This document shows positions 3,313-32,070 of a stretch of DNA of 58,640 nucleotides, one piece after another. The stretch spans positions 425,046 through 483,685 of the forward strand of contig QPGO01000051.1 of the NCBI GenBank assembly GCA_008632985.1. Reading direction: 5' to 3'. The position numbers and the translations under genes were made by a program. The notes below the pieces were generated by a model. The model searched no databases, was not told the DNA's origin, and saw only the letters and a list, made by a program, of their open reading frames with translations. Source of the DNA: Psammoneis japonica (Eukaryota). The stretch's first letter is position 1; each line of letters opens with the position of its first letter.

Positions 3313-4476
3313 GTGGAAAGTGAACGGGCCAAAAACTCCGGCGGACCCACTCAAACACATTCAACAACTGACTGACAACAGATCGGTTGACTGGTTTCCC
3401 AAAGCGCCGCTTGTGTTGTGCCCTTCCCCAGCTGCTCTCCAGCTGGCGCCATGGAATGCAGTCGCTCAATTTAGATTGTGTCTGCAACGTCATTTGCAAC
3501 AAACGTGGCTGCCGCTTTTCACACGTTGTCCGCCAAACAGGTTTTGGCCCCAGCTCATGTGTCTCAGCACAACCCGCCACGTGGCTTTCCTCATCCCCCA
3601 ACCCACTGCCCCCCTCCTCCACTTTCCTGTCACGCTCTGCCACAATCTTCTTGCAAAAATCCTCCCTCTTGCGTTTCCTGGGTGCACTCCCTCCCGCATC
3701 TCCGTTCTTGGAGTTCCCTGTCGTGAAGTGCTCCAGGCATCTCGCGCACTTTCGTGCAAACAAGCCACATGTTCCCAGGTTGCAAACTGCCCCACAGCCA
3801 AAAGAAGCAATCTTTGCCTTTGGAGTCACCATGATGCGCTGGTCTGCCAAATCAAACTCAGCATCGCCATGGACAGTGGGGGAGAAATGTTGTCAAAACT
3901 GCACGATGATGTGTCTGAGCTCTTGAGAGCTCACCCAGCTCAAGACGTCATGGCTCCAAGTCGCCGTGTTTGTCTTGAACTCTTCCTGATGCTGTGTCTG
4001 TGACTTGGCTTCGTCGCTGAATTGCCGTGGCCACCGCACTTTAGAGATGACGTTCCAGACAAGAAAAAGTGTCTCTGGGGTGCCTCATGACAACAGAGGC
4101 CCCACAGAACAAAAGAGCAGCGCAGAAAGAGAAATTGCACGTAAATTGAACGACTGCAAACACATGAAGCCTCGACAAAACACACAGCACAAATGGCAGC
4201 GCATGAGGTTGGTCGTGAAGCAACAGAAGCGACGTTGTCAATGCGAACCTTCAGCAAGAATTTTTGCCACAATCTGCCCATGTGAGCCTGGATGCTCTTG
4301 AGCTCATCTCGCACAAGATCACACAACGAACCGAGTTCTGTTGAGAGCATCCAGGTTCCGACCTCAGAGACAATCGCATTTTTCAACTTGGCAAAACGCC
4401 ATTGTCCGCACCATTTTGCGTGTCATTTTGAGCCGCGAGCCAGAGAACACTCCCAAAAACTGTTCTGCAGGGCAAA

Positions 4477-4908
4477 TGCCCCATGCATGCACTGGGCGCT
4501 GAAAAAGAAGATGTGTTGCGACTTTGTCGTTGTGAAAATTATGAGCCAGTTTAGAGCAGAGAAAATGGGATCGTGCAAATGGGGGATCTTGCCAAATCCC
4601 TGTTCGTTCGCATTTGGATCACATTAAATCGATCGTGCACTCGCATCATGGATCGTGCGAATCAAGCCATCACGTGCCATGCATGAGTGATGTCATCGTG
4701 TGGAATCACGCTGTCATCGTGGGCCAGACGACGGGCCAGTGTGCCCCACACGGACGCTCTCTCAGCATCCTTCTGGAATTGCCTGAGACCCAGAGCCACG
4801 CCCTCCTGTGGTCGTGCTTCCCAGGTGCGTGTTGACAACACTGCGTTGCCACGTGCAAGAGGCTTGTGCACGGTCTCGCCGTGTTGTCCAGTGGCGAGGC
4901 ATGCTGCA
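4477..4908 (-). repeat. 3' LTR of gypsy element
   Basis: Colinear with 9343-9774 (offset 4866); preceded on the minus strand by a polypurine tract. Confidence 0.95.
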
Positions 4909-4918
4909 CACTCCCCCA
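4909..4918 (-). other. Polypurine tract of gypsy element
   Basis: Minus strand TGGGGGAGTG directly abuts the 3' LTR. Confidence 0.8.
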
Positions 4919-4949
4919 TGATCAGGGCCGCCAAGTGACAGAATGTCTT

Positions 4950-6780
4950 GCTGGTGACAGGGCACAATCTGCCGTAGATTGCACGTGTCTGTCAGCGCTC
5001 CATTCTGGACATGCAACGTGCCGTTGTCACACACACGGACAACTCTGGCGGGTCCTGCACAGCTGTCAGAACCGCGTTTGGAGGATTGTTCCTGTTTGAC
5101 AAGTGCCAATTGCCCTGCGGCATGTTGATGCTCCTTGCGTTTCTGATTTTCACGCTTGTTGTTCAAGTGGACAAGCTTCTGCTTTCTGGTTTCTATGTGC
5201 TTCCACTCAGCACAATGGGCAATGGATGAAACCGCATCGCGTCCGAAGACCAATTGCGTGGGACTTGCACGCATGGTCATGTGTGCCGCAGCTCCAATGG
5301 CGAAGGCCACTGCGGAGAGGATGCCACTCCATGGGTCATCTTCGTCCAGTTCCACACCCTGCACTGAAAAGGAACGTGCCATGTTGCCAAGTGTCTGGTG
5401 CACACATTCCACTGTGGCATTTGCCTGTGGATTCCATTTGCTTGTGGGTTTCTTCAAAATCCCACAGTCATTTTTAATCATCTGGCTAAATTCTGCCACA
5501 AATTCTGTTCCACGGTCATAAACTGCCTGGGTTGGCCACGGATGTCTGCATGGCCACGTTTGTTCCACGACGTTTGCTGCGACGTCTGCGCGTTTCGCAG
5601 ACACTTCTTTAATCTCGAACTGCCCGGTTGCTGGGTCAATCATTGTGACTGCCCACAATTGCAAGGTGTCCTTTCCGCGTCTTTGAATTTTGTGTGGCCC
5701 CATCATGTCCATGCATGGAGTCTCCCATGGAATTATCTCTGCGACCTTTTCTGGTGGCTTCCCATGATGCTGCGTTCGGCGTTTTGTCTTCTGGCATCGA
5801 TCGCACTTAACGCACGTAGAATGCACCGCAGACCTCACACTGGGCCAATGGAAGTGCTGGGCAATGGACATTTCCGTGCGTGTCTCACCTGGATGACACA
5901 GTGTCTCGTGGCGCCATTCAGTCAGCGGAACCTGCAATGACTGTGGTGCTGCGATTTTGTCCTTATGACAGATTAACTGTTGTGATGACCCTCCCCCACG
6001 ATGCGCGCGAATGGAGCAGTCGGGCGAGTCCCCAGCTCTTGAGAGCAGGCGCTTGTCCTTTTGTTGTGCTTTTTGAATGCGCTTGAAGCTAACAGGCAGA
6101 GACAGCTCATCTTGCACGTCTGCATTAAAAGCTTCATGCAAAGGACGACTCGATGGAGTGTCTTTTACATCCGGATTAGCCTCGGAAGGCAAGCTGGGTG
6201 CCAGTCGAAGGCAACCAAGAGCGTCAGCGACTGGGTTGTGGGCACCCTTGACACAGCGTAATTCGGGACCGTGTTCTTCACATGTTGGCCGCCAGCGCAT
6301 GACGCGCTCGGCATTGAACACTTTGTGCGCAAGATTTTTATGATCAGCAAATGTGACCACACGATGACCAAGGAGAATCGTTCGAAATTCTTTCAACGTC
6401 TCCACAATGGCGAGCAATTCTCTCTCCGTTGTTGCATGATTTAATTGCGCATTGTCAAGCTTTCTGCTGTAAAAGGCGACAGGTTCATTGTCTTGGGATG
6501 TGACTGCTCCCAATTGACATTTAGAGGCATCGGCATGCATCTCAAAGGGTTCATTAAAATCAGGATGTGACAACAAAACATCATCCGACATTGCCCGTTT
6601 GACGGTTTCGAACGCCTCGTCTTCAACGGACGTCCACTCCCACTTGACAGTCTCGCTTGCGAGTCGTGTCAGCGGAGCCAAGACTTCAGAATGTCTAATC
6701 CACGTGTCGCGGCAGTGGCCCCACCATGCCAACAAATGAACGCAGGTCGCGTTTGTTGGTTGGGGTCGCGATTCGCTCAA
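4950..6780 (-). pseudogene. pol: Gypsy pol: RNase H + integrase (decayed)
   Basis: HADASKCQLGAV, PVAFYSRKL, ERELLAIVETLKEFR (RNase H); H-x3-H...C-x2-C zinc finger (HETLCHPG...CVKCDRC); DRGTEF and NPQANATVE integrase core. Confidence 0.95.
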
Positions 6781-7500
6781 TGGCGTCGACTTTATCAGGT
6801 GTTGGTCGCATTCTGTCTCTGTTGACCAGATGACCCAAGCACTCTAATTGGGTTTGACAGAAGTGAGATTTAGTTGCGTTGACTTTTAGTCCTGCTTTCT
6901 GGACCCTCAATGAAACTTCTTCAAGTTTGTTGAGGTGATCTTCACAGGTGCCTTTCGTCACGACGAGAAGGTCATCTAAGTGCGTTCGAACGAACGACAG
7001 ATCTTCAAATGAGCCTGACATGCGTTCTTGGAAAATGTCTGGCGAGTTGCACAATCCCATGGGCAACACCTGCATCTCATGCTTGCCCCACGGGAAGATG
7101 AGCGTGCAGAGCTTCTTGCTGTCAGCATCCAATCGGACATGACAATGGCCCACATTTAAATCCAGCGATGTGGCCCACACAAAGCCTTCGAGCTTGAGCA
7201 GCATGTCTTGGACATGAGGAATCGGATGAGGCAATCGCTTGATCCGTTTGTTCAGCTCTCTCAAATCATCAACAAAGCGCACCGTAAATCTTTCTTCGGC
7301 ATGACAAATGATGGAGCTGCCCATTGGGATCGGTCAACGCGTTTGAGAACACCGACAGATGCGCACCAGGCGTTCTACTTCTTTGCGCAGCGCAGCTTCG
7401 CACGCACGAGGTGCTTCACACGGACGAGCGTGGCATGGTTCTACACCCTCCTTGAGTTGGGTGTGGCAGGGTTCTCCCTTCCATTCTCCCAATGTCCCAT
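6695..7500 (-). pseudogene. pol: Gypsy reverse transcriptase (frameshifted, YLDD->HLDD)
   Basis: VRFVDDLRELNKRIKRLPHPIP, LDLNVGHCH, LPMGLCNSPDIFQ, RTHLDDLLV, ECLGH. Confidence 0.95.
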
Positions 7501-7521
7501 CAAATGAGGACTCATGGCGTT

Positions 7522-8172
7522 TCAACAGCGCCAAAAGGTCGTTTTGTTGAACTGCAGAAAGACCCATTGCCCCTCGCTTATGTCCTCGAGGCAGGCCGGC
7601 GCGTGCTTGGCGTCCAAAATGCGCGAAATCCGGTCGGTTTCCGAAGACAAGGCTTCTGGATCTTGAAGATAGAAGGAGGTTTCCACCGTGGCATCTGCGT
7701 GCCTCATTGGCACTTCTCCATTGACTGATGGCCACTCTGTCATCTGTTTGGAGAAGACAACATTAATGCCTTGCGTCTCCAGAATGTCACGTCCAACAAT
7801 CACATCGCACTTGCCCAACTTTCCGTTGTGTGCGTGGACGGCATGCTTGAGTTCTGCAGTTTCGGACAATTCTGGCAACCAAAATTTAACGGCACAGTCG
7901 TCAGACGTGCCAAACGAGCCTGCTGCCGCAGCCCAGTTTGTCTCAGCCATTGAATGGCTTCGCAGACGTTTGCAGTGTCGACTGTCAAGTAGAGTGCTGC
8001 TGGCGCCACCATCCAGCAGTGCCTCAACAGTTTGAGTCTTGCCCTTGCCATGTTCAGCATTCATGGCCACAAACAAGATTGGAGCAAGATGAGTCTTTTT
8101 AACTCGTTTGCGGGATTGGCCTGCAACACGTGTACAATGGCAGTTCAGTTGTTCATTTGTACATTCATCCAA
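7522..8172 (-). pseudogene. Gypsy aspartic protease region
   Basis: ALLDGGASSTL (degenerate D-S-G-A) and DVIVGRDIL flap/end motif. Confidence 0.85.
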
Positions 8173-8208
8173 TGTGTCAAAACTGCCTGTGTCGTGTCGG
8201 CCCCCTTC

Positions 8209-9281
8209 TCAGGCGTCCGAATCTTCGGAATCACCCAAGTTGAGGTCGCGGAAGTGATTGAGCTCCTCCTCGTGGGCCTTGCGCTTTTTCTGAGCGTTGG
8301 CAAAGAACTCCTCGACCTTCGATCCGATGAGAGCATTGACATCTTCCTCATTCCGAGGTTTTGCATTTGGCTTGCCGCCTCCGTCATTGGAATGTCCAGT
8401 CTTGACACGTTTCACGTGGTGCTTGAGCTGACGGCAATCCTCCGTGTGATGTCCACAGTTGGTCCCGTGCAGCATGCACGACTTCTGGGTGTTCCGTTGG
8501 GTCGTGATCAACGACTCAGGATTGTCCGTTCTACGTCCCCGCTTGCGTGGAACCTCAGCATGTTGGTCCTGGTTACCTTCGGCAAGCTCGACCTGCTCGA
8601 TGCGCTCGCAGAACTGTGCAAATTTGGCGACAGTGTGCGCCAGCGGGTCAAAATTCTGCAGCGTCATGAACTTCTGCCATGCGTTCGGCACACCGCACTC
8701 GAACATGTCGCACAGTTCATCATTGGGTGATGGTGCCGGTGTTTCTCCATCCTCCGTCACGGGTGGAAACTGAGAGATGCAGCCGTTAATTTCAACAGCC
8801 CTCACGACGTGGTCACGAGCAGAAACCTCTGCGGGCTTGCGCATGAAGCATGCAGATGACGCTTCTGCAACAGTGCCGCCCCATGTGGGAAGATGCTTTC
8901 CTTTAGCTTCGCGACACATGCTGCGTGCGTGCGTGAGTTTGGGATGCCTGCTTGTCAGCGGCATTGTCAAATGACGTCAGAGCATCGCCCTGTGGCAGGT
9001 CACGCACAAGGGCAAATTTCCTGGCCCGGTCGTGATGTTTTGTCCTTCGTGCACGCGATCCACGTTGCGCAGAAAGATTGGGAGTGTCTCGCATGTGGCC
9101 GCAGAAAGGTGCGGAATGCCCATCTCGTGCGTTGGACCATCCGGATCAGCGGGGTTGTACGCAGCTTGAACGTCTGGCACTCGCCCTGCTGCAACTCTTT
9201 CTTCTCCGGCCGTGCAAACGGAATCGGCGGCTCAATCCGCTTCTTCATGGTCGTTTTAAGATTTGTCGGTCCTGCCAACAT
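8209..9281 (-). pseudogene. gag: Gypsy gag (frameshifted)
   Basis: Position between 5' LTR and protease; CMLHGTNCGHHTEDC zinc-knuckle-like motif; split over ORFs 9000-9281, 8977-9180, 8209-8970. Confidence 0.8.
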
Positions 9282-9331
9282 TTCGTAGTTTCGTTTCTGC
9301 AGATTTCGTCACCTCGCACAACATGCGGGAG

Positions 9332-9341
9332 TGACATCACT
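9332..9341 (-). other. Primer-binding site complementary to the element's own LTR (self-priming type)
   Basis: tgacatcact (9332-9341) is the exact reverse complement of agtgatgtca (9552-9561) inside the 5' LTR; no TGG tRNA-type PBS. Confidence 0.65.
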
Positions 9342-9342
9342 G

Positions 9343-9774
9343 TGCCCCATGCATGCACTGGGCGCTGAAAAAGAAGATGTGTTGCGACTTTGTCGTTGTG
9401 AAAATTGTGAGCCAGTTTAGAGCAGAGAAAATGGGATCGTGCGAATGGGGGATCTTGCCAAATCCCCATTCGTTCGCATTTGGATCGCATCAAATCGATC
9501 GTGCGCTCGCATTGTGGATCGTGCGAATCAAGCCATCACGCGCCATGCACGAGTGATGTCATCGTGTGGAATCACGCCATCATCGTGGGCCAGACGACGG
9601 GCTGGTGTGCTTCACACGGACGCTCTCTTGGCATCCTTCTGGAGTTGCCTGAGACCTGGAGCCACGCCCTCCTGTGGTCGTGCTTCCCAGGTGCGTGTTG
9701 ACAATGCTGCGTTGCCACGTACAAGAGGCTTGTGCACGGTCTCGCCGTGTTGTCCAGCAGCGAGGCACACTGCA
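9343..9774 (-). repeat. 5' LTR of gypsy element
   Basis: Colinear with 4477-4908. Confidence 0.95.
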
Positions 9775-10279
9775 CAAAGTGTGCTGAGCCCACACAGATT
9801 TGGGTTGCACCAGGCCACGTAGAAAGTGAGCGGGCCAAAAACTCCGGCGCACCCACTCAAACACATTCAACAACTGGCTGACAACAGATCGGTTGACTGG
9901 CTTCCCAAAGCGCCACTTGTGTCATGCCCTTCCCCGGCTGCTCTCCGGCTGGTGCCGTGGAGTGCAGTCACTCAATTTAGATTGTGCCTGCAACGTCATT
10001 TGCAACAAACGTGACTGCCACTTTTCACACATTGTCTGCCAAACAGGTGTTGGCTCCAGCTCATGTGTCTGGGTCCACCCCCCCACGCGGCTTTCCTCAC
10101 CCCCCAACCCATTGCCCCCCTCCTCCACTTTCCTGCCGCGCTCTGCCACAATCTTCCTGCAAAAATCCTCCCTCTTCCCTGCCATGAAGTGCTCCAGGCA
10201 TCTCGCGCACTTTCTCTCCTTTGCCCCACGTTCTTCATCAGGCAGGTTCTTGTTGTTCTGCAGCTCTGTCGTGACCAGC

Positions 10280-10740
10280 AAAATGGCCAAGGGCACAAAA
10301 TCAAAAAGGACAAAAAATGTCTGTTGAGGGCGCCAAATCACGAAGAGCACAAACCAGGCAGTGGCACAAAGTTGCTGAGGTCACAAAATGGCTGAGGGCG
10401 CAAAATGGTGGCTGAGGGCACAAAGCTGCCAAGGGCAAAAAATCAGAAAGGGCCCAAGGTGGCAAAGGGCACAAAACCACAATGGCCAAAAATTGCTGAA
10501 GGCACAAAATCAGGAGGGGCGCCAAATGCGGCTGAGGGCCCAAAGCCAAACAAGGCACAAAATGGCCAAGGGCACAAAGCCACAAAGGGCACAAAATGGC
10601 CAAGGGCACAAAGCTGCGAGATGGGGCAAAGTGCTCAAGGGCACAAAAAAAGGAAAGGGCGCAAAACAGCCAAGGGCACAAAAAGGTCAAGGGCACAAAA
10701 CCAAGAATTGCGCAACACGGCTGAGGGCACAAAGCCTCAA
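10280..10740 (+). repeat. GGGCACAAA satellite, second block
   Basis: Colinear with 375-1205 but shorter. Confidence 0.9.
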
Positions 10741-10874
10741 AGGTGCCCCCAGTGCCAAACACTTGCGCCGCAAATCTTGTTTGATCAGCGCCCTGCCAGT
10801 GGGCTGTGTCTCTTCAGTGCCCCCCCCGCAACATGTGGCGAGATTGTTCTCGATTTGAAGACCGCCTTTGGAGT

Positions 10875-11146
10875 GAAAATGCGAAAATGCGAAAATGCGA
10901 AAATGCGAAAATGCGAAAATGCGAAAATGCGAAAATGCGAAAATGCGAAAATGCGAAAATGCGAAAATGCGAAAATGCGAAAATGCGAAAATGCGAAAAT
11001 GCGAAAATGCGAAAATGCGAAAATGCGAAAATGCGAAAATGCGAAAATGCGAAAATGCGAAAATGCGAAAATGCGAAAATGCGAAAATGCGAAAATGCGA
11101 AAATGCGAAAATGCGAAAATGCGAAAATGCGAAAATGCGAAAATGC
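10875..11146 (+). repeat. Perfect (GAAAATGC)n microsatellite, ~34 units
   Basis: Direct reading, no interruptions seen. Confidence 0.98.
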
Positions 11147-13426
11147 ACCAAACTCCGTTGAGAGTGTCCAGATTCCGACCTCAGAGATGACCGCATTTTT
11201 CAATTTGGCGAAACGCCGCTGTCCGTGCTGTTTTGCACGTTGTTTCAAGCCGCAGAGCCAGAAAACACTCCAAAAAAATTGCCCCGCAGGGCAAACAAAA
11301 GAGCAACGTAGAAAGAGAAAATGCACGCAAATTGAATGGCTGCATGCATGTGAAGCCTCAACAAAACACACAGCACGAATGGCAGCACATGAGGTTGGTT
11401 GTGATGCAACAGAAGCAACGTTGTCAGCGCGAACCTTCAGCAAGAATTTTCGCCATGATCTGCCCATGTGAGCCTGGATGTTCTCGAGCTTGTCTCGCAG
11501 AAGATGATGTGACAGTGACGAGCTCCATTGAGAGCATCCAGGCTCCGACCTCAGAGATGACCGCATTTTTCAATTTGGCAAAACGCCGTTGTTCGCGCCA
11601 TTTTGCGCGTCACTTTGAGCTGTGAGCCAGAAAACACTCCCAAAAACTGCTCTGCAGGGCAAAGCGCACTGAACCCACACAGACTTGGGTTGCTCCAGGC
11701 CACGAAGAAAGTGAGCGGGCCAAAAACTCCGGCGGACCCACTCAAACACATTCAACAACTGACTGACAACAGATCGGCTGACTGGTTTCCCAAAGTGCCA
11801 CTTGTGTTGTGCCCTTCCCCAGCTTCTCTCCAGCTGGCACCGTGGAATGCAGTCGCTCAATTTAGATTGTGTCTGCAACGTCATTTGCAACAAACGTGAC
11901 TGCCGCTTTTCACACATTGTCCGCCAAACAGGTTTTGGCTCCAGCTCATGTGTCTCAGCGCAACCCGCCACGTGGCTTTCCTCATCCCCCAAGCCATTGC
12001 CCCCCTCCTCCACTTTCCTGTCACGCTCTGCCACAATCTTCCTGCAAAAAACTTCCCTCTTGCGTTTCCTGGGTGCACTCCCTCTCGCATCTCCGTTCTT
12101 GGAGTTCCCTGTCGTGAAGTGCTCCAGGCATCTCGCGCACTTTCGTGCAAACAAGCCACATGTTCCCAGGCTTCAAACTGCCCCACAGCCAAAAGAAGCA
12201 ATCTTTGCCTTTAGAGTCACCATGATGTGCTGGTCTGCCAAATCAAACTCAGCATCGCCATGGACAGTGGGGGAGAAATGTTGTCAAAACTGCGCGATGA
12301 TGTGTTTGAGCTCTTGTGAGCTCACCCAGCTCAAGACATCATGGCTCCAAGTCGCCATGTTTGTCTTGAACTCTTCCTGATTCTGTGTCTGTGACTTGGC
12401 TTCGTCGCTGAATTGCCATGGCCACCGCACTTCAGAGACGACATTCTTGACAAGAAAAAGTGTCTCTGGGGTGCCTCATGACAACAGAGGCCCCACAGAA
12501 CAAAAGAGCAGCGCAGAAAGAGAAATTGCACGTAAATTGAACGACTGCAAACACATGAAGCCTCGACAAAACACACAGCACAAATGGCAGCGCATGAGGT
12601 TGGTCGTGAAGCAACAGAAGCGACGTTGTCAATGTGAACCTTCAGCAAGAATTTTTGCCACAATCTGCCCATGTGAGCCTGGATGCTCTCAAGCTCATCT
12701 CGCACAAGATGACACAATGAACCGAGTTCTGTTGAGAGCATCCAGGTTCCGACCTCAGAGACAATCGCATTTTTCAACTTGGCAAAACGCCATTGTCCGC
12801 GCCATTTTGCGTGTCATTTTGAGCTGCGAGCCAGAGAACACTCCCAAAAACTGTTCTGCAGGGCAAAGCGTGCTGAGCCCACACAGATTTGGGTTGCACC
12901 AGGCCACGTAGAAAGTGAGCGGGCCATGTGCTCCGGCGCACCCACTCAAACACATTCAACAACTGGCTGACAACAGATCGGTTGACTGGCTTCCCAAAGC
13001 GCTGCTTGTGTTGTGCCCTTCCCCGGCTGCTCTCTGGCTGGTGCCCTGGAGCGCAGTCACTCAATTTAGATTGTGCCTGCAACGTCATTTGCAACAAACG
13101 TGACTGCCGCTTTTCACACGTTGTCTGCCAAACAGGTGTTGGCTCTAGCTCATGTGTCTGGGTCCACCCCCCCATGCGGCTTTCCTCACCCCCCAACCCG
13201 TTGCCCCCCTCCTCCACTTTCCTGTCTTGCTCTGCCACAATCTTCCTGCAAAAATCCTCCCTCTTGCATTTCCTGGGTGCACTCCCTTCCGCATCTCCGT
13301 TCTTGGAGTTCCCTGCCATGGAGTGCTTCAAGCATCTCATGCACTTTCTCTCCTTTGCCCCACGTTCTTCATCGGGCAGGCTCTTGTTGTTCTGCAGCTC
13401 TGTCGTGACCAGCAAAGTGGCCAAGG

Positions 13427-13656
13427 GAGTCAAAATGTCAAAGTCATTCTGTCAACGTCATTTTGGACATTTCCACATGTCGCTTGCGTCATCGAGATTC
13501 AAATCTCTTCTCTTCTCACAAACTCGGTTGTTGAGACCTCTCGTCAGTTTGCAATCACAATTTCTCCATGGAGAACTTTGACAACGACTTCTGCTGCTCT
13601 GTTGAAACCTTGAGCTCTTGCTCTTTCTAACACAAGCTGCTTTGTCGCATCTTCAG
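13427..13656 (+). repeat. 5' LTR of copia element
   Basis: gagtcaaaatgtcaaagtcattctg...catcttcag colinear with 20785-21014; boundary uncertain by 1 nt. Confidence 0.92.
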
Positions 13657-13670
13657 TGGTTGTGAGTCCC
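13657..13670 (+). other. Primer-binding site, copia/hemivirus-type (internal tRNA-Met fragment)
   Basis: tggttgtgagtccc resembles the GGTTATGRGCCC copia-type PBS with TA->TG. Confidence 0.55.
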
Positions 13671-14161
13671 AATTTCGCATGGCGTTCGTTCCGCCGCCGG
13701 GAAAGCGCTGTCGATTTGTTCATCGAAGCTTCCATCCGCCACCAACGTCGATTCGTTTGCTTCTGCCAAAACGGTCGCGTTGTTTGATGTCTGAACGACA
13801 CCTCCAGTCAATGTCAGACACTCCCCACATTGCCACCAGCCGCCGTCGTTCGATTGACAAGCTGGTGGCCTGTTTTTGCTTCGCGGAATCGATCTGCAAT
13901 CTCCAACGAGTTCCGAGTTTGAAACCCCAACGTCCGTGTGTTTTAAACCAAACCCAGATCGAGTTCCTGCAACTCTCCGGTCCTTCATCAATCAAGAACA
14001 GCTCCTCAAGTCACGTCACGGGTCACTCATGTCGTGCCGTTGATTGCCGCAATCGTCTGGCGCCGCTCTACAAGCTCTGCGACTCGAAGTTCGTTCCATT
14101 GATCCGTTGTCGAGTTGACTGCGTACATTTGGTGCTGCAGCTGCACAAAAGTTGTCTCTGC

Positions 14162-16596
14162 CATGACGAACAATCCTCCTCCGCCCAAGACTCCTGCTGG
14201 TCAGCCTCCACCGCCTCCCGCGGCACAACAAAACCAGCCCACCGGTGCTGCCGCTCAACAGAATCAGTCTGCCAGTGCTGCCGCTCAACAGAGCCAGTCT
14301 GCCGGTGCCACTGCTCAACAGTCACATTCCAACCAACAGTCGTCGCATTCCAACGTTCAGCACCCTCGTCCACCTCCGATCCGTGGCGGAATCCATCCGG
14401 AACATGGTCGCCACATGGGTGGATCACCGCTGAATGACGAGTGCCATCTCAAGCTCAAGCGCACCTGTCGCTCTGCCAACCAGTCTCGGGACAAGAAGAT
14501 TCTTCCTCACACAGAGCGCAATCTCCAAGATGCCCAAGATGGAACCGATGTTGTCAAGTTCGATGGGAACCCAGAGATTCCCAACGGCAAGACGAATGAG
14601 CTGACAAGGAACACACGTCAGTGAATGAGCACGGATTGGAAAATTTTTCATCATGAAGTTGGACAAGAAGGTCGTTGACCTCTTCACTCACCTCCGTGGC
14701 TTCACTGTCGACAAGGTCATTGCGGAGCATGATGAATGCGCCAACAAGGCAACAGACGATTCGGCACACGATGAACATGAGCACGACGATGTCAATCTTT
14801 CACGTCTTGTCGTCGAGTCTCATGTCACTCACCAATTCGGCGAGAAGATTGAAACTCAATTCGGTCATCGCGACCTCTTCCGATGCTGCCCTGGGCAAAT
14901 CATTCCCATGATGGCTCTCGAGACTTGCAATGCCTCCGCCATGCATGATGTTGCTCAAGCCGCTGAAGACTTCGAGGCTTTGACGCTTGACTCCCATGCT
15001 GGCGAGGATGTTGCCGAGTTTGCTGCCGAAGCTCTCCGCCTCACCAAGATCCTGCAAACAGGACATGCGCTCCCCATCTCTCTTGGGTCCGATCTCCTTC
15101 GGAAGTGCTCCAAGACCTCTGGCGAAGCGTTCAATCAAGCAATCTTCGCCCAGTTAGACAAGGTGACGGCCATGGAACGCAAGCATTGTTTGACGGACCC
15201 AGCGCCACTTGCCAAGGACAAGGACTGCGGAACTCTTGGTCCGACTGCGTGCATCACCTTCCTTCAAACGAGGCATCGTGACTTCGTTGCTGACAAGGAC
15301 TGGCCCGGTCTCTCTGCTAAACTCCCTCAGGGTGACCACACCGAGCGCAAGGGAGCTTGCAACGCTTGTGGTGCTCCAGACCACTGGGCCAACGACAAAA
15401 AGTGCCCCAAGCATGCGGAGCGTCAGCGCCTGAAGAAGCTTGCCCGCCAACAACGTGAGGGTCAACCGCCAGCAGGTGCTCCACCCCCTCCTTCCACGTC
15501 TCCTCCCGGCACTGTTGCTCCAGCGAATGCACCTGCGGACAAACAAGCGAAGTTCAAGGAGCTGTTTGCGAATGAGCCCCATCGCCACACTCGTCCGGCT
15601 GATCTCAACCAGCCAGTCGTCAACAAGTGTGGGTCAACTGCTCACTTTTGCACCAAGTGCGCGTGCCGCCACACTGGCATCAAGAGCCTCTGTGCTGGTC
15701 ACAAGGATGCCGCCCACACCAACAAGCCACCCAAGAAGGAACAGCCGGATGCCAACCTTGCTTCCGTGGCCGATCCCGACTCCGGCGTGCCGGCTGGGCC
15801 ACCCGCTCAGACCACCGCCAATCCTACATCCACCAAGCCCGATCCGTCGTCTGACGATGATGCTCCCCCTGTTTTGGAGGAGGAACCAGTCTGGACTGGG
15901 TTCTGTTGCTGTCCTGTCGAGGACGCATCCGGCAATGCCGCTCCCATTGTGCGAGTCTCCGTCCTTCCCAGTCCTGCCGCTGAGAGGGAGCAGCGCACAA
16001 TTTTGGTTGAGACGGTTGACCTGGAAGACGCTGATGATTTCAGCGATTGCTGCGATGCTTGCGACAATTTGGATTGGGATGATTCGGTCATCCTCTTTCC
16101 TGCTTCAATGTTCCCACTGGAGCCTTCTATCTTGGACATTCCGCCAACTCCTGTTGAGTCTCCTGCACTCGACGACGAGTTCTACGATGCGATCTCTGAG
16201 CCTGCTCTGAATGTCCTTGACGTGGAACCTCAGCCCACTTCTTGCTGGCTCTGGTCCCTCCTCAAGATCCCAGTCTTTTGGTTCTCTGCTCTTCTTTGGG
16301 AAGGCATCCTGTGGCCAGCGGGTGCTGGTGGTGATCCGCCGCTGCCCTCACGTCGCTGTCGCCATCTCAAGCGCAAGCCTGCTCTTTTCAGTTGTCCGTG
16401 TCGTTGGGGCGTGATCTCCTGTGCAATTGCGCTTTGGCTCTCCATCTGTCTCGGCCGCGCCCCGCCCCATCCTGGCATTCCCTTGCAGCGTCTCTGCTCT
16501 CAGACCCACGAGGTTGTTCAAGCTCTTGACGAATGTGTCGTCTTGACCCCTGGCACCCTGCTGCAGCATCATCATCTGAAGATCAAGCAGTTCTAG
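14162..16596 (+). pseudogene. gag: Copia gag region with CCHC zinc knuckle and long extension
   Basis: CNACGAPDHWANDKKC knuckle; one frameshift near 14600; same frame as downstream pol. Confidence 0.8.
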
Positions 16597-19500
16597 CATG
16601 AGGTCTTGGTGCCAGAGGGAGCAACGCATGACACGACGACCTTGCCTTTTGAGCTTCACGAGTTGATTGAGGCCTGTGAGCTCGATGACTGCTTTGACAC
16701 CTGTGAGGACCCACCTGTCTTTCAAGAGTCCTTCTTTGATGCTGCTGCCTTTCGCGAGTCGGACTTCTCCAGTCCTGACATCTTTGGGATCTCCGAGTTG
16801 TGTCGAGCCCACCATGTGGTTGACTGCACCGAGTTCCAACCTTCTGTCGCGGCACTGGCTGCTCAAGCTGCCAGTGCGTCCCCTGCTTCCATTGGACAAC
16901 CTGCCGCAGCTGCTGTCCAGGCTCTCACCGGAGCCACCCAACTGTCTTGCCTGGCTGGGGACCCTGCCGTTCTCATGTCTGCCGGGCAGTCGTCACTGGA
17001 GGCAGTCGTCGACACTGGCGCCTCGCTCGCCATCTCTCCGGATGAGGAGGACTTTGATGGCGAGATTGAGTTGCCATCCAAGCCTCTCAAGCTTGGTGGG
17101 ATGGCTGACGGCCTTCCCGTTGAGGGCGTTGGTGCTGTCTCTTGGTGCTTCCAGGCTGCCGACGGTGGCGACATCAATGTCCAGACTCGCTGCTGTTGTG
17201 TCCCTCGTTCCAAGGTGCGCCTTCTGTCCCCTCAACATCTCTTTCATCCTGCGGGTGTTCGAGGCCATTTTTGGGGCGACAGTGAGATCTTCAAGATTTG
17301 TTTTTACGGCACACCTGAGATCCAAGTTCCACATGATGAGCGCTCGAACTTGCCAGTTGGTCATGCATCTTGCGGCACTGTGTTCGCTCCTCAGGTCAAT
17401 TTGAGTGCTGTTGCTGACCCTGACAATCTAAATCTGTCCTCTGGGCAGAAGCCACTCGTGGATGTACATGCTCGGTTTGGGCATCTCAATTTTCCACGCA
17501 TCCAAGCTCTTCTCCGCCGGCCTCCTTTCACCGCTCTCAAGTTCGCATCTGCTTCCAAGTGTGACATCCCCAAATGCGATTCCTGCGAGCATGCCAAGGC
17601 TCATCGCCGTCCTGCTGAGGCCCAACGAAAGACTGCTGTCCCCAAACACGATGGTGCATTCGAGGCTGGTCATCTCCATCCAGGTCAGTCCGTGAGCGTT
17701 GATCACTTCGAGTCGCGTCTGAAGGGTCGCACCTGCAATTCCCATGGCAAACCCTCCTCCCAGCAGTGTGTTGGCGGATGCATTTTCGTCGATCATGTCT
17801 CTGGGCTCACACACGTTGAGCATCAAGTTGGTTTCTCTGCAGTTGAGACGATGCGGGCAAAACAAGGTTATGAGCAGATGGCTCTGGGTCACGGCGTCGT
17901 CATGCAGGAGCACCTTGCCGACAATGGTGCTTTCAAGGCCAACAAGTTTGTCACCCATGTCCGCGAATCTCAGCAACGCATCCACTGTTGTGGAACAAAC
18001 GCCCATCACCAGAATGGCGTTGCGGAGCGGTCCATTTGTTCCATGTCCAATGTGGTGCGAGCCATGATCCTCCATGCGTCCATCCATTGGCACAGTGGCA
18101 TTGACAGCTCCTTGTGGCCTGTGGCGGTCAACTGTGCTGCCCACATTTACAACAACACTCCGGGATCAAATGGACTTTGTCCTGCCAACATTTTCGCCGG
18201 ATCCACCGTCCCACGCCACCGTTTGCTCGATTTACACACTTGGGGGTGTCCTGTCTACGTCTTGGATCCCAAGTTGCAGCAAGGACAGAAATTGCCGCAT
18301 TGGCAACCACAATCACGGCGTGGTGTTTTTCTCAGCCTCAGCTTGGTTCGCGCTGGCAAGGTTCCACTGGTCCTGAACTTGAGTGCTGGGTCCATCACTC
18401 CTCAGCATCATGTGGCATTCGACGATCTCTTCACCATGGTCGCATCAATCGAGAGGGAGAGCGAGCCACCTGATCACTGGGAAGAGCTCTGTTTGGAGAG
18501 TTTTGTCCAGATGCCACTGGATTTGAGTGACAAACAATTGTTCCTCCAAGACGATTGGCTTGCTCCTGCAGAACTCGAGCAGAAACGGCGACATGAAGAA
18601 CGTGAGCATCTTGTCAGGAATGCACGTCAACAACAGCCTGCCGCTGTGAAGTCTTCAAAGCCCATCGCTCCAGTCATCGAACCGCCGCCATCTGCACGTC
18701 CTGGCGCGTCCACACCATCGAATGCAGACGACTTGCCATCGGTGCCACCACAGGAACCACCATCGCAGCCACCGCAAAACCCCAATCCATCAACGAGCGA
18801 TTCTGAAGTTGGTCATGCACCGCCTCTCGTACGTCCGCCACCTCAATCTGGCCCGGAGTCATCGGACATCCCAGTCCCGGCTCCTGATGTTCCAGTCCCA
18901 TCCACGACTGAGCAGAACGTGCGTCGCTCACAAAGATCAAACAAAGGCAAGCGAGCTACAACTCGTTTTGCCGACGAAGTCCATTCAGCCTCAGTCGAGC
19001 CATTGGATGCTGGAGGACACCATTCCCAGCTCGCCCATCTCGCTGAGATCCAGACCTGCTGTGACAGTGGACAATTGGACATTCAAGACCCTCGTGTCTA
19101 CGCTGCAAAGGCCAAGAAGAATGACGACACGCCGAACATGCGAGAAGCTCTCACGGGCGAATTCACTGAGCAATGCGTCGAGGCCATGAAGACCGAAGTG
19201 GCCGCGCTTGTTCATCACAAAACTTGGAAATTTGTCAAGCTCGATTCATCCATGAATGTGTTGAAATCAACATGGGCACTTAAGTTGAAACGCTTGCCTG
19301 ACGGTGCTCCGCTGAAATTCAAGGCTCGATTTTGTTGTTGTGGCGATTTGCAGCAAGAGGGAGTCGACCACTTCGAGACTTGCGCTCCAGTGGTCCAGTG
19401 GTCGACTGTTCGTTTGCTGTTGAGCACTGTGTTGCAAGAAGGGTGGACAACTCGTCAAGTTGACTGCACAAATGCGTTTGCACAAGCTGATGTCACTGAA

Positions 19501-20778
19501 GACGTTTGTGTCGAACCTCCCAAGTGCTTTGGTCACTCTTCAGGTGCAAACGTGGTTCTCAAGCTACTCAAGATGCTCTGTGGGTTGAAACAAGCCCCGA
19601 AATGCTTCTGCGAAAAGCTCCGCGAAGGATCACTTGAATGAGGGTGGATTCAGTCAGCTGCAGATCCATGTCTGTTCTTCAAGGATGGCATGATTTGTGT
19701 CGCATGCGTCGACGACACTGTCCTCGCTGGTGCTGACGGAGACCTTCTGGAATGCGAGATCACCGCTCTAGGAATTCAAAAGGAAGAACAACGTCACATT
19801 TTTGAGCTTCGCAACGAAGGAGAAGTTGGCGACTTCCCAGGCACCAAGATTTGCAAGACCGGACCCAAGGAGTTCCTGCTGACTCAACCAGGTCTGACTG
19901 ACAAGGTCCGCAAAGCTGCTGGCATGGAAGATTGTCGTCCTTCTCCCACGCCTTGCACTGCTTCTCTGTGCCATGCTGATTCAGAGGGAGCTGATTTCGC
20001 CGAACCATGGGATTGCCAATCTGTTGTCGGGATGCTTGTGCACTTGTCGGCAAACTCCCGTCCTGACATCACGTGTGCCACCCATCAAGCCGCTGTCTCC
20101 TCCTGTGCTCCTGAACACTCTCATGCTGTTGCAGTGAAGCGCATTCTTCGTTGTCTTCAAGGTGCCAAGGACAAGGGCCTCCATCTGCACCCCAGCAACA
20201 ACAAACGAGTTGATTGTTTCATGGATGCCGATTTTGCTGGACTCTGCGGTCATGAAAACTCCCAAGACCCCGTGAGTGTCAAGTCTTGTGCAGGATGCGT
20301 CATTTTGCATTGCGACTGTCCCATTCTGTGGGTCTCCAAGCTGCAGATGCAGACTGCCCTCTCTGCCATGGAGGCAGAATGTCTGGCACTGTCGGCTGGC
20401 ATGCGCGACCTGATTCTGATCTGAGAAATTTTGAAAGAAATTCAGTGTCACGCACTCGGGCGCAAGAATGCTTCTGCTCCCACTGCTGCCAAATCTAAAG
20501 CCTTTTCTGATGTGAAAGACGGTGCGATTCCTTCCTCCATTGTCTGCAAGGACAACCAAGCGTGTCTCAAGTTCGCGAAAATGGCAAAGATGTCTCCTCG
20601 CACCAAACACATTGGCATTCCCTGCCATTGGTTCCGCGCTAAAGTTGAAGTGCTCGAGATTGTCATTGAGCCTGAAGGAACCGACTCTCAGCTTGCAGAT
20701 CAGTTTGCAAAGGGGTCAGTCCAAGCTCTGTTTGAATCCAGTCGGAAGAGTCTGTCTGGCTGGCAGCTCTGTGTTTGA
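16597..20778 (+). pseudogene. pol: Copia pol: protease, GAG-pre-integrase, integrase, RT, RNase H; one frame with in-frame stops at 16594, 19639, 20422
   Basis: VVDTGASLAIS; HARFGH..CDSC; SVDH, ADNG, HHQNGVAER; KFKARFC, VDCTNAF, LCGLKQAP, ACVDD (YVDD); DADFAG, EAECLAL, DNQAC, RTKHI, QLADQFAKG. Confidence 0.97.
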
Positions 20779-20785
20779 GAGGGAG
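20775..20785 (+). other. Polypurine tract of copia element
   Basis: ttgagagggag immediately before the 3' LTR. Confidence 0.8.
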
Positions 20786-21014
20786 AGTCAAAATGTCAAA
20801 GTCATTCTGTCAACGTCATTTTGGACATTTCTGTGTGTCGCTCACATCATCGAGATTCAAATCTCTTCTCTTCTCACAAATTTGGTCGTTGAGACCTCTC
20901 GTCAGTTTGCAATCACAACTTCTCCACAGAGAACTTTGACAACAACTTCTGCCACTCTGTTGCAACCTTGAGCTCTTGCTCTTTCTAACACAAGCTACTT
21001 TGTTGTATCTTCAG
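20785..21014 (+). repeat. 3' LTR of copia element
   Basis: Colinear with 13427-13656. Confidence 0.92.
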
Positions 21015-21495
21015 CAAGGACACAAAATCAAAAAGGACAAAAAATGTCTGTTGAGGGTGCCAAATCACAAAGAGCACAAACCAGGCAGGGGCACAAAATT
21101 GCTGAGGTCACAAAATGACTGAGGGTGCAAAATGGTGGCTGAGGCCACAAAGCTGCCAAGGGCAAAAAATCAGAAAGGGCCCAAGGTGGCAAAGGGCACA
21201 AAACCACAATGGCCAAAAATTGCTGAAGGCACAAAATCATGAGGGGCACCAAATGCGGCTGAGGGCCCAAAACCAAAAAAGGCACAAAATGGCCAAGGGC
21301 ACAAAGTCACAAAGGGCGCAAAATGGCCAAGGGCACAAAACCACGAGATGGGGCAAAATGCTCAAGGGCACAAAAAAAGGAAAGGGCACAAAACAGCCAA
21401 GGGCACAAAAAGGTCAAGGGCACAAAATCAAGAATTGCGCAACATGGCTGAGGGCACAAAATCTCAAAGGTGCAAAATGGCCAAGGGCGCAAAAC
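21015..21495 (+). repeat. GGGCACAAA satellite, third block
   Basis: Continuation of macro-unit 3 after the copia insertion. Confidence 0.9.
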
Positions 21496-21990
21496 AAAAA
21501 ATTGCATGTGGTGCATTTGGGATGGGAGGGTTTGGGTTTGGGCCATGAGGTGGCACGAAATGCTTCTGGTTGAATGACAGACCCCACCTGATCGATGCCA
21601 AGTGGCCACGGTTGAAGGACAGACCATGCCAAATGGATGCGCACCCACATCTGTTTCTCACCCACAGTCGACCTCAGGACATGCATTCGCCAAAGCGTTC
21701 GATGCAATTTTGCTCCTGTCAATGGACAGACCATGCCAAATGGGTGTGCACCCGCATCTGTTTCTCACCCACAGTCGAACTCAGGACATGCCGCTGCACA
21801 CATCGAATCAGTCAAGCATCATTTTCACATGTTGTGACTGGCAGCGTGACTGAAAGCAACACCCAAAACAAGTGGCTGAATGCCAAAATTGCCACAAACC
21901 TGAAAACAAAAAGTGGACAATGAGTGTTGCGGGATTAACAGCAATGCAGCCATTTTGAGACTGCTTCCCCCCCCTCACACATTTTTGTGG

Positions 21991-24810: not shown

Positions 24811-24896
24811 GTCAGAGACTGTTTCCAATGGGAGAGTGCATTTGCCAAACCTGTGTGGAACATGGCAAAACAACGTGAGCGAATGATCCTCGCCCA

Positions 24897-28740: not shown

Positions 28741-28747
28741 ATTGTGT

Positions 28748-31610: not shown

Positions 31611-32070
31611 GACAGTTTGTGTCATCGCGAAACATCAATTCATGAAAGGGCTCCTCACTCAACACCTCCTGTTCATCATCGTCAAGACCAGACGTTTCTT
31701 TGGGAAGCATTGCCTGAAAAAGAAACGTTTTTTGATTTTCTTCACCAGCATCCAACCAACATTTGTTGACAGGGATCACATCTCCGAAGTGACAAAATGC
31801 CTCCATTGTTGCCTTTCCGGCACCAGCCAGCAACTTTGGACACAGATTTTTGTCGGTCCACCTCCCTTTTCCGCACTGCACCATTTTTGTCATCGTCAAA
31901 CCAAGGATGACCTGTGTTTTGATGTGGACATCAAAGACACACAGTGCGGCTTTGGGCAAACCGCTCTTGAAACATCGGTTTTGTTGAGATTTGCAAAAAT
32001 TCCCTTCAAAAAGAAAAGAAAAGACAACTGGTTTTCAGGCACACGACAAACAATTCACGGTTTTCACTTG

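What the first reader, a model, noticed from the sequence alone, without database searches (positions are those of the whole stretch)
4477..9774. Sister LTRs show the mutation happened on DNA after integration, on both strands
LTRs are identical at insertion (established). Here they differ by TA vs TG (4540-41 vs 9406-07), TA vs CA (4625-26 vs 9491-92) and many TG vs CA swaps (4601-02 vs 9467-68; also catcatgg/cattgtgg, gctgtc/gccatc, gccagt/gctggt, tctcagc/tcttggc), with no indel seen. A TG/CA swap is one palindromic dinucleotide hit on opposite strands in the two copies. Some swaps may come from CpG, but the TA-retaining sites show TA is a source. This argues against RNA editing or RT error, which would be strand-biased or copied into both LTRs. 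It also means LTR-divergence dating overestimates age here.
Basis: partly seen in the sequence, partly recalled or inferred. Interest (0 to 1): 0.8.

Follow-up and report, generated by a model that had tools for sequence, protein, structure and literature searches.

The report
TA-erasing mutation in sister LTRs
The two end-repeats of one jumping gene, identical when it inserted, now differ almost only where a TA step became TG in one and CA in the other, so a TA-destroying mutation process acted on the chromosome, on both DNA strands, after insertion.

Summary
Observation confirmed. 4477-9774 is one Ty3/gypsy insertion on the minus strand, with 432-nt LTRs, a CAAA target duplication and an uninterrupted paralogous empty site. 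The LTRs align without gaps and differ at 29 of 432 places: 29 transitions, 0 transversions, 0 indels. There are nine TG/CA swaps, three TA-vs-TG/CA sites, five CG-vs-TG/CA sites and three other differences.

A saturation model with TA as ancestor fits. It gives 88% of TA hit per copy and 21.3 ancestral TA, against 21-22 expected from composition. CG as ancestor is rejected (0.11 swaps expected, 9 seen).

With protein relatives as outgroup, 21 of 31 conserved tyrosines are now His (11) or Cys (10). Among single-transition changes, 54 trace to TA and 11 to CG. Outcomes are balanced between strands (LTRs 11:10) and interleaved.

A copia element (13427-21014) repeats the pattern. A TIR-bounded (presumably DNA-transposon) element and satellites, which presumably have no RNA or cDNA stage, are TA-poor too.

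LTR dating is inflated about fourfold (6.7% vs 1.6%). Not obtained: the states of other genomic LTR copies at the swap sites.

This scan already reported the same process in other pieces of this genome. The only published parallel I found is a 2026 preprint on Bigelowiella natans. New detail here: ATA is erased fastest and TTA slowest.

The parts
4473..4476 (.). target-site duplication CAAA, left copy
   Evidence: same 4 nt at 9775-9778; single copy at the empty paralog 12864-12867
4477..4908 (-). LTR (3' LTR in the element's own sense), 432 nt, TG...CA ends, 3 TA left
4909..9342 (-). internal region of the Ty3/gypsy element; 46 TA where 245 are expected from composition; polypurine tract GGGGGAG beside the LTR at 4908
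4762..6843 (-). open frame with RNase H, integrase zinc-binding and integrase core domains; Tyr 0.29%
   Evidence: PF17919 5e-28, PF17917, PF17921, rve weak
6695..7333 (-). reverse transcriptase frame; no Tyr left
   Evidence: RVT_1 4e-19
7522..8208 (-). probable aspartic protease frame (weak match)
   Evidence: RVP E 0.0095, below the Pfam cut-off
8209..8976 (-). probable gag frame, assigned by position and by alignment to relatives' N-terminal parts only
   Evidence: no Pfam match
9343..9774 (-). sister LTR (5' LTR in the element's sense), 2 TA left
9775..9778 (.). target-site duplication CAAA, right copy
12864..12867 (.). empty-site paralog of the host repeat (no insertion)
   Evidence: 3316-4476 matches 11707-12867 and 9775-10176 matches 12864-13265
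13427..13656 (+). 5' LTR of a Ty1/copia element, followed by a TGG... primer-binding site; TSD CAAGG at 13422-13426
13657..20784 (+). copia internal region (gag-pre-integrase, integrase SH3, RVT_2, RNase H-like)
20785..21014 (+). 3' LTR of the copia element; TSD CAAGG at 21015-21019; empty-site paralog at 10288-10292

Best explanation
A gypsy retrotransposon inserted with normal TA content into a host repeat that had already lost its TA. After insertion, a process acting on the integrated DNA turned TpA into TpG or CpA, which is an A:T to G:C change on one strand or the other. It did so site by site and independently in each LTR, until about 88% of TA steps were gone. Where both sisters were hit on opposite strands, a TG/CA swap resulted. 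The rate at TA was about 137 times that of sites outside Y-R steps and about 25 times that of CpG. Shown here: the spectrum, the TA origin, strand symmetry, independence of the two LTRs, the same pattern in a copia element, and the same low TA and TG/CA excess in a TIR-bounded (presumably DNA-transposon) element. Inferred, not shown: the chemistry. I think enzymatic deamination of adenine to inosine at TpA in silenced mobile DNA is most likely, with a preference for A two bases upstream (ATA fastest, TTA slowest). This matches the proposal made for Bigelowiella natans. The confidence given is for the process (post-insertion, DNA-level, two-stranded TA erasure); for the deaminase chemistry alone I would say about 0.45.
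For: Sister status: TSD and empty site, plus contigs bridging the empty site. Spectrum: 29 of 29 transitions, 26 of 29 in Y-R steps, 21 of 29 at swap or TA-retaining sites. TA-ancestor model: p 0.883, G 1.6, implied 21.3 TA against 21-22 expected. CG-ancestor model rejected, 0.11 swaps expected against 9 seen. Pair 2: TA model fits, and CG predicts 0.78 swaps against 5 seen, P 0.0013. Host-repeat paralog pairs of 3.4-10.7% divergence have only 0-3 swaps and 4-11 transversions, so swaps mark the newly inserted elements. Outgroup for gypsy, 12 relatives at 40-51% identity: of 31 conserved Tyr columns, 1 kept Tyr, 11 His, 10 Cys, 2 Arg(CGC), 7 other. Among 738 conserved columns, single-transition changes are 54 TA-type, 11 CG-type, 15 other AT>GC and 8 other GC>AT. 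Outgroup for copia: 43 Tyr columns give 3 Tyr, 16 Cys, 12 His, 12 other, with 56 TA-type against 27 CG-type. All 94 gypsy relatives have 1.6-4.8% Tyr, against 0-0.44% in the window's frames. Strand balance: LTR1 11:10, LTR2 6:6, Tyr-only Cys 26 to His 23. Gypsy interior: 25 runs against 27.1 expected. Mass balance in the gypsy element: TA deficit 237, CG deficit 37, TG+CA excess 328. Elements with presumably no cDNA stage are also TA-poor: the TIR element has TA O/E 0.2-0.33, and the whole window 0.06. Context: converted N-T-A counts are A27 C19 G14 T15, retained are A9 C21 G20 T52, chi-square 27.1, P 6e-6. Across copies in a DNA run, 522 of 540 variable places are transitions. Precedent: de novo TpA>TpG/CpA mutations in integrated viral DNA of B. 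natans mutation-accumulation lines (abstract, Results and Discussion read).
Against: No outgroup was obtained at the nine LTR swap sites themselves. The table of other copies' letters was cut (504 rows hidden) and no whole genome is held. TA ancestry there therefore rests on the model, composition and the interior. In the five-copy TIR family, of 21 columns that mix TG and CA, 5 also keep CG, 2 keep TA and 14 keep neither. A single-rate model explains those 14 from neither ancestor, so site heterogeneity must be assumed. Five of 29 LTR differences are CpG-type, and at 4621 other copies show that CG is ancestral. Three differences lie outside TpA; at 4745-46 other copies have TT, so T>C also occurred off-target. 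Pooled interiors lean to sense-strand A>G, 67:43 (P 0.028, uncorrected and open to detection bias). The copia interior shows weak same-strand clustering, 20 runs against 27.2 expected, z -2.09. The window holds no genes, so restriction to mobile DNA cannot be tested here. Nothing here bears on the enzyme. The DNA run may be the assembly's own sample.
Confidence: 0.85

Rival explanations
1. The TG/CA swaps come from methylated CpG. Each LTR would have lost the same CG by 5-methylcytosine deamination on opposite strands.
For: CpG decay is active in this window. Five of 29 LTR differences are CG vs TG/CA, and other copies show CG ancestral at 4621. In the older duplicate 21500-24812/28740-31616 there are 67 CG-vs-TG/CA sites, which by my own working from the counts would yield about 9 of its 15 swaps. 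Five of 7 resolvable swap columns in the TIR family keep a CG.
Against: In LTR pair 1, 28 CG are intact in both copies and only 5 are changed in one. That predicts 0.11 swaps against 9 seen (P 7e-15), and the CG-ancestor model is rejected at G 28.8. CG O/E in the LTRs is already 0.87-0.99, whereas TA is 2-3 against about 21-22 expected. The interior outgroup test gives 54 TA-type against 11 CG-type. The CG deficit of 37 cannot supply the TG+CA excess of 328.
Confidence: 0.04
2. The changes were made before integration, by ADAR-like editing of the element's RNA, by editing of cDNA, or by reverse-transcriptase error.
For: ADARs favour a U before the edited A, as stated in the Discussion of the B. 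natans preprint. Pooled interiors show a slight excess of sense-strand A>G, 67:43. Some of the TG and CA shared by both LTRs could predate integration.
Against: Changes in the RNA would be copied into both LTRs, yet 21 of 29 sister differences are at TA-derived sites. One-strand editing cannot give 11 TG to 10 CA in the LTRs or His 11 to Cys 10. A TIR-bounded (presumably DNA-transposon) element, satellites and the host repeat, which presumably have no cDNA stage, are equally or more TA-poor. Editing of finished double-stranded cDNA just before integration is not excluded by the LTRs alone.
Confidence: 0.04
3. The two LTRs are not sisters. A recombinant element or a chimeric assembly in a family of hundreds of copies would make the differences family polymorphism.
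For: The family is very abundant: 6531 contigs of one run lie on 4300-9950 at 80% or more, and some joints suggest LTR-LTR recombinants (4552 to 9429).
Against: Identical 4-nt TSD on both sides, and flanks that are collinear with an uninterrupted paralog. There are 0 indels and 0 transversions between the LTRs. Even if true, the swaps would still show independent hits on different copies of integrated DNA.
Confidence: 0.03
4. Same process but different chemistry. Instead of a dedicated adenine deaminase, a symmetric base modification placed at TpA in silent chromatin (for example N6-methyladenine, or an oxidised or hypermodified thymine) mispairs or decays passively, as 5-methylcytosine does at CpG.
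For: TpA is palindromic, so a modified T and a modified A give the same two products. The strand symmetry, site-by-site independence and gradual accumulation seen here are what passive decay of a symmetric mark would give. That oxidised thymines can mispair with G is recalled, not from a call.
Against: In B. natans the hypermutation appeared in only 11 of 15 lines, which its authors read as a regulated activity. The upstream-base preference fits either an editing or a modifying enzyme.
Confidence: 0.25

Closest known systems
TpA-restricted hypermutation of integrated NCLDV and virophage DNA in Bigelowiella natans (Mettrop et al., bioRxiv 10.64898/2026.01.13.699255; abstract, Results and Discussion read)
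   Same: Almost only A:T>G:C. Only at TpA, giving TpG or CpA according to strand. Acts on integrated DNA of foreign origin. TpA falls and CpA+TpG rises. In that study TpA-poor coding sequences were enriched in reverse-transcriptase and DDE domains.
   Different: That work is on a chlorarachniophyte, while named relatives of the copia element here are diatoms. Its evidence is de novo mutations in mutation-accumulation lines, whereas here the evidence is sister LTRs. Depletion there is moderate (Rho 0.45) against near saturation here (O/E 0.06). The text has no occurrence of diatom, LTR, retrotransposon or trinucleotide. The upstream-base hierarchy is not reported there. Supplements of the preprint could not be seen.
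Repeat-induced point mutation (RIP) of Neurospora and other fungi (features recalled; the preprint's Discussion, describes it as C>T mutation of sequences with high homology)
   Same: Heavy, transition-only, dinucleotide-specific mutation of mobile and repeated DNA in place, on both strands. It inflates divergence-based ages.
   Different: The direction is opposite. RIP makes TpA from CpA and creates stop codons. Here TpA is destroyed and TAA/TAG vanish: 92 TAA and 64 TAG against 1123 TGA on the plus strand. Dependence on duplication and on meiosis is untested here.
APOBEC editing of LTR retrotransposons during reverse transcription (Knisbacher and Levanon 2015, PMC4866542; search listing and start of abstract only)
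   Same: Deaminase scars preserved in integrated LTR elements.
   Different: That is C>U on one cDNA strand before integration (G>A on the plus strand). Here the changes are A:T>G:C, on both strands, and differ between sister LTRs.
CpG decay through 5-methylcytosine deamination
   Same: A palindromic dinucleotide decays to TG or CA according to the strand hit. It is present here as a minor component (5 of 29 LTR differences).
   Different: The source dinucleotide is CG and the direction is G:C>A:T. In LTR pair 1 it runs about 25 times slower per site than the TA process.

Membership tests
TpA>TpG/CpA hypermutation of integrated DNA (B. natans type) | Changes are almost only A:T>G:C transitions | tested here: met
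   29 of 29 LTR differences are transitions. Direction by outgroup in the interior: 54 TA-type plus 15 other AT>GC, against 11 CG-type plus 8 other GC>AT. Direction at the LTR swap sites is inferred from the model.
TpA>TpG/CpA hypermutation of integrated DNA (B. natans type) | Restricted to TpA | tested here: met
   21 of 29 differences fall at swap or TA-retaining sites. The rest are 5 CpG-type and 3 off-target. TA O/E is 0.06 with CA and TG at 1.53.
TpA>TpG/CpA hypermutation of integrated DNA (B. natans type) | Both products, TpG and CpA, meaning either strand is hit | tested here: met
   11:10 and 6:6 in the two LTR pairs. Cys 26 to His 23 at conserved Tyr in both elements.
TpA>TpG/CpA hypermutation of integrated DNA (B. 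natans type) | Confined to foreign or mobile DNA while host genes keep normal TA | tested here: inconclusive
   The whole 58.6-kb window is repeats, with TA O/E 0.02-0.21 in every 2-kb bin, and holds no gene for comparison. Earlier scan notes on other pieces say neighbouring genes are untouched; I did not check this.
TpA>TpG/CpA hypermutation of integrated DNA (B. natans type) | Seen as de novo mutations, episodic between lines | not testable with these tools
   Needs resequenced lineages.
TpA>TpG/CpA hypermutation of integrated DNA (B. natans type) | ADAT2-like candidate deaminase in the genome | not testable with these tools
   No whole genome is held.
RIP (fungal) | C>T at CpA, enriching TpA | tested here: not met
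   TpA is depleted to O/E 0.06 and CpA/TpG enriched to 1.53.
Pre-integration RNA or cDNA editing (ADAR/APOBEC type) | One-strand bias; changes made on the RNA are shared by both LTRs | tested here: not met
   Sister LTRs differ at 12 TA-derived sites with balanced outcomes.
Ty3/gypsy LTR retrotransposon (the carrier element) | LTRs with TG...CA ends, TSD, polypurine tract, and pol order PR-RT-RNase H-integrase | tested here: met
   The protease match is weak (E 0.0095). The frames are broken and Tyr-free, so the copy is dead.

The most novel reading that the evidence does not exclude
Diatoms carry a DNA-editing genome defence that recognises newly integrated mobile DNA of any class (gypsy, copia, TIR elements, satellites). 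It deaminates adenine at TpA on both strands in place, with an ATA > CTA/GTA > TTA preference, until the element's tyrosine codons and TAA/TAG stops are gone. Its presence in both a stramenopile and a rhizarian would make TpA editing an old or repeatedly evolved eukaryotic counterpart of RIP. Sister LTRs would then serve as a built-in clock for measuring its rate.
Probability: 0.35. Interest if true: 0.85.

Novelty: new member of a known kind. Interest (0 to 1): 0.7.

Why it matters
It gives sequence-only evidence that the TA loss in these repeats is mutation of integrated DNA on both strands, not inheritance, RNA editing or selection. It puts a number on the process: about 88% of TA per LTR, roughly 137-fold over background (CI 47-666) and 25-fold over CpG. 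It extends a process known from one preprint on a rhizarian alga to LTR retrotransposons of a probable diatom. There are practical consequences. LTR-divergence dating in such genomes is inflated about fourfold unless Y-R sites are masked. Repeat and gene finders will see Tyr-free, stop-poor pseudo-ORFs: 39 ORFs of at least 180 aa in 21.5 kb. The upstream-base preference is a testable fingerprint for the enzyme.

Tried and rejected
- Whole-genome search for other LTR copies: no genome is held.
- Read laying on 4300-9950 showed the family is very abundant, but the table of other letters was cut (40 rows shown, 504 hidden). The states of other copies at the swap sites were therefore not visible.
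- No RNA holder was listed among the runs.
- A metagenome scan with a 20-nt LTR word gave 4 loci that match over only 20-35 nt, which is chance.
- Look-up of earlier notes by LTR sequence found nothing.
- Column analysis of the 23-nt satellite (282 units) had no column diagnostic of a TA ancestor.
- A single-rate model on the five-copy TIR family predicts 0.2 pure TG+CA columns from either ancestor, against 14 seen. That family cannot settle ancestry without assuming rate heterogeneity.
- The protein atlas gave only a weak taxon hint, one cluster with Bacillariophyta known for 2 members.
- CG-ancestor model, RIP, one-strand editing and non-sister LTRs were considered and rejected, as set out under rivals.
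- Literature searches found no description of TpA erasure in diatoms or in LTR elements. Only listings and abstract starts were seen, apart from the Mettrop preprint.

Full report
**What is at the coordinates**

The window is 58,640 nt with one N run (56472-57038). It consists entirely of repeats. TA is at 0.06 of expectation (212 TA in all), CA and TG are at 1.53, and CG is at 0.72.

The direct repeat 4477-4908 / 9343-9774 bounds a 5,298-nt element. Its minus strand carries frames with reverse transcriptase (RVT_1, 4e-19), RNase H (5e-28), integrase zinc-binding and core domains, and a weak protease match. This is the Ty3/gypsy order.

The element is flanked by CAAA on both sides. The flanks (3316-4476 and 9775-10176) are collinear with an uninterrupted paralog (11707-12867 / 12864-13265), where CAAA occurs once. 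Contigs of a public DNA run also join 4473 to 9780 and beyond. So this is a single insertion, and its LTRs are true sisters.

**The observation**

The LTRs align without gaps and differ at 29 of 432 places: 29 transitions, no transversion, no indel. The differences break down as follows:
- nine TG/CA swaps (18 places);
- three sites where one copy keeps TA (4540, 4625, 9720);
- five CG-vs-TG/CA sites;
- one CC/TT pair (4745-46) and one A/G (4778).

26 of 29 differences lie in pyrimidine-purine (Y-R) steps, which hold 240 of 432 positions (P 9e-5).

**TA or CG as the source**

I counted the states of all Y-R sites in the pair:

| State in the two LTRs | Sites |
|---|---|
| TA/TA | 1 |
| TA vs TG or CA | 3 |
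| TG/CA swap | 9 |
| CG/CG | 28 |
| CG vs TG or CA | 5 |

If each copy is hit independently with probability p, then intact, single-hit and swap counts must fit one p.
- With TA as ancestor they do: p is 0.883, G 1.6, P 0.2. The implied number of ancestral TA is 21.3, and base composition predicts 21-22.
- With CG as ancestor they do not (G 28.8, P 8e-8). From the intact and single-hit CG sites, only 0.11 swaps are expected.

Host-repeat paralog pairs of similar or greater divergence (3.4-10.7%) have 0-3 swaps, 4-11 transversions and mainly CG-type differences. Those copies were duplicated when their TA was already gone. Swaps therefore mark elements that arrived with TA.

**Outgroup test inside the same element**

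Twelve full-length relatives (40-51% identity, Tyr 3.1-3.9%) were aligned to the window's frames, which have Tyr 0-0.44%. Of 31 columns where at least 8 of 12 relatives have Tyr, the window has:
- Tyr in 1;
- His in 11;
- Cys in 10;
- Arg (CGC) in 2;
- other residues in 7.

Other conserved residues are mostly kept. All 94 relatives found have 1.6-4.8% Tyr.

Over 738 conserved columns, 268 are changed.
- 107 cannot be explained by one base change, 67 need a transversion, and 6 are ambiguous.
- Of the 88 explained by one transition, 54 are window TG/CA from TA, 11 are TG/CA from CG, 15 are other AT>GC, and 8 are other GC>AT.

Mass balance agrees: the TA deficit is 237, the CG deficit 37, and the TG+CA excess 328.

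**Both strands, site by site**

- At TA-derived LTR sites the outcomes are 11 TG to 10 CA.
- In the gypsy interior, 32 are sense-strand A>G and 22 are T>C (P 0.22). They are interleaved, with 25 runs against 27.1 expected.

This excludes one-strand editing of RNA or cDNA as the origin of the sister differences, and it argues against long same-strand tracts.

**Replication**

13427-21014 is a Ty1/copia element, with RVT_2, gag-pre-integrase and integrase SH3 domains. It has a CAAGG target duplication, a TGG... primer-binding site and an empty-site paralog at 10288-10292.
- Its 230-nt LTRs differ at 20 places (19 transitions), with 5 swaps, 2 TA-retaining sites and no indel.
- The TA model fits. 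CG predicts 0.78 swaps against 5 seen, P 0.0013.
- Its 43 conserved Tyr columns give 3 Tyr, 16 Cys, 12 His and 12 other. TA-type changes number 56 against 27 CG-type.
- Named relatives of this element come from Fragilaria, Nitzschia and Cylindrotheca. That supports the diatom origin stated in earlier scan notes.

**Results that cut the other way**

- CpG decay is real. It gives 5 of 29 differences in pair 1, and other copies show CG ancestral at 4621.
- In the older duplicate 21500-24812 / 28740-31616 there are 184 mismatches, 42 of them transversions. Its 67 CG-type sites would, by my own working from the counts, yield about 9 of its 15 swaps.
- In a five-copy TIR family of about 390 nt, 21 columns mix TG and CA. 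Five of them also keep CG, 2 keep TA and 14 keep neither. A single-rate model explains those 14 from neither ancestor.
- Off-target T>C occurred at 4745-46, where other copies have TT.
- Pooled interiors lean to sense-strand A>G, 67:43 (P 0.028, uncorrected and open to detection bias). Tyr-only counts are 26:23.
- The copia interior shows weak same-strand clustering (z -2.09).
- I could not see the states of other LTR copies at the swap sites.

**What "after integration" rests on**

Sister LTRs show only that the hits came after the LTRs were made. That the substrate is chromosomal follows from three things.
- A TIR-bounded (presumably DNA-transposon) element (TA O/E 0.2-0.33), the satellites and the host repeat, all of which presumably lack a cDNA stage, show the same TA loss.
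- There is an age gradient: host repeat 0.02-0.03, copia 0.07, gypsy 0.18, TIR element 0.2-0.33.
- De novo chromosomal TpA>TpG/CpA mutations have been observed directly in B. natans.

**Rates and dating**

An 88% loss corresponds to 2.15 hits per TA site per copy. Sites outside Y-R steps show 3 differences in 192 positions. Per nucleotide, the TA rate is about 137 times background (CI 47-666) and about 25 times CpG. Naive LTR divergence is 6.7%. Outside Y-R steps it is 1.6%, and excluding TA-derived sites it is 2.1%.

**A new detail: upstream-base preference**

Survivors are not random. Among the 424 upstream neighbours of the 212 remaining TA (both strands), A occurs 21 times, G 97, C 123 and T 183. 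ATAT is absent and TTAA is the commonest context. Within the gypsy element, converted targets have N-T-A counts of A27 C19 G14 T15, against retained counts of A9 C21 G20 T52 (chi-square 27.1, P 6e-6). ATA is therefore erased fastest and TTA slowest. The converted set is shaped by codon context, so this needs genome-wide confirmation.

**Mechanism and comparison**

The spectrum, the TpA restriction and the two products match the hypermutation of integrated NCLDV and virophage DNA in Bigelowiella natans. Its authors propose adenine deamination by an ADAT2-like enzyme. That text has no occurrence of diatom, LTR, retrotransposon or trinucleotide.

I take the same process as the best explanation, and enzymatic A-to-inosine deamination as its most likely chemistry. 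The chemistry is inferred, not shown. Because TpA is palindromic, a modified thymine or N6-methyladenine that mispairs would give the same picture, and I keep that as the main rival on chemistry.

The process runs opposite to RIP. It differs from APOBEC or ADAR scars in being two-stranded and unequal between sisters.

Five literature searches found no report of this in diatoms or in LTR elements. This scan had already reported the same process in other pieces of this genome, including the same LTR logic on a copia pair. This report is therefore a replication, with added statistics, rates and the context preference.

Noticed in passing
22543-22940; also 36383-36683 (-), 50864-51246, 45070-45450 (-), 35143-35325: A TIR-bounded element of about 390 nt with no coding capacity (MITE-like). 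It is inserted into satellite and into one copy of an older duplicate, and is absent at 29783-29790. Its TA O/E is 0.2-0.33, less erased than its surroundings (0.02-0.09), as expected for a later arrival.
   Followed up: partly
whole window; element 4477-9774: Surviving TA are strongly biased by the upstream base: A 21, G 97, C 123 and T 183 of 424, with no ATAT and TTAA commonest. Converted sites show the reverse bias (P 6e-6). This points to an ATA > CTA/GTA > TTA substrate preference.
   Followed up: partly
13300-34800 and whole window: TAA (92) and TAG (64) are almost gone while TGA (1123) remains. As a result, long spurious open frames appear in all six frames: 39 ORFs of at least 180 aa in 21.5 kb.
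   Followed up: partly
5911-5913 and 5074-5076 (minus-strand codons): Two conserved tyrosines now read Arg (CGC). That is TA changed on both strands to CG, so some CG in erased DNA may be TA-derived. Some of the 'CpG-type' LTR differences could be second hits rather than CpG decay.
   Followed up: no
13657-20784: In the copia interior, same-strand outcomes cluster weakly (20 runs against 27.2 expected, z -2.09). No such clustering is seen in the gypsy interior (25 against 27.1).
   Followed up: partly
21500-24812 vs 28740-31616: An older duplication of about 3 kb with 184 mismatches: 142 transitions, 42 transversions, 67 CG-vs-TG/CA sites and 15 swaps. Here CpG decay, not TA erasure, dominates the differences. 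No Pfam domain was found in its long ORFs.
   Followed up: partly
34876-35138, 39508-40010, 41245-41507, 45459-47126, 48647-53340: Arrays of a 23-nt satellite totalling about 7.8 kb, with the large array at 48647-53340 in the opposite orientation. Unit position 5 varies T (213) / C (63), and one CG/TG/CA/AG site is variable. The origin of these variants is unresolved.
   Followed up: partly
10875-11146 and 1329-1548: An 8-nt microsatellite (GAAAATGC), with 34 perfect copies at 10875-11146 and a degraded array at 1329-1548, embedded in the repeated host sequence.
   Followed up: no
381-1197, 10279-10769, 21015-21498: Degenerate 17/34-nt AGGGCACAAAA-type tandem arrays that form part of the host repeat into which both LTR elements inserted.
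   Followed up: no
4300-9950: 6531 contigs of one DNA run lie on the gypsy element at 80% identity or more, with summed word depth of about 8,000-59,000 per bin against about 27-63 for single listed contigs. The family probably has hundreds of copies. 522 of 540 variable places are transitions.
   Followed up: partly
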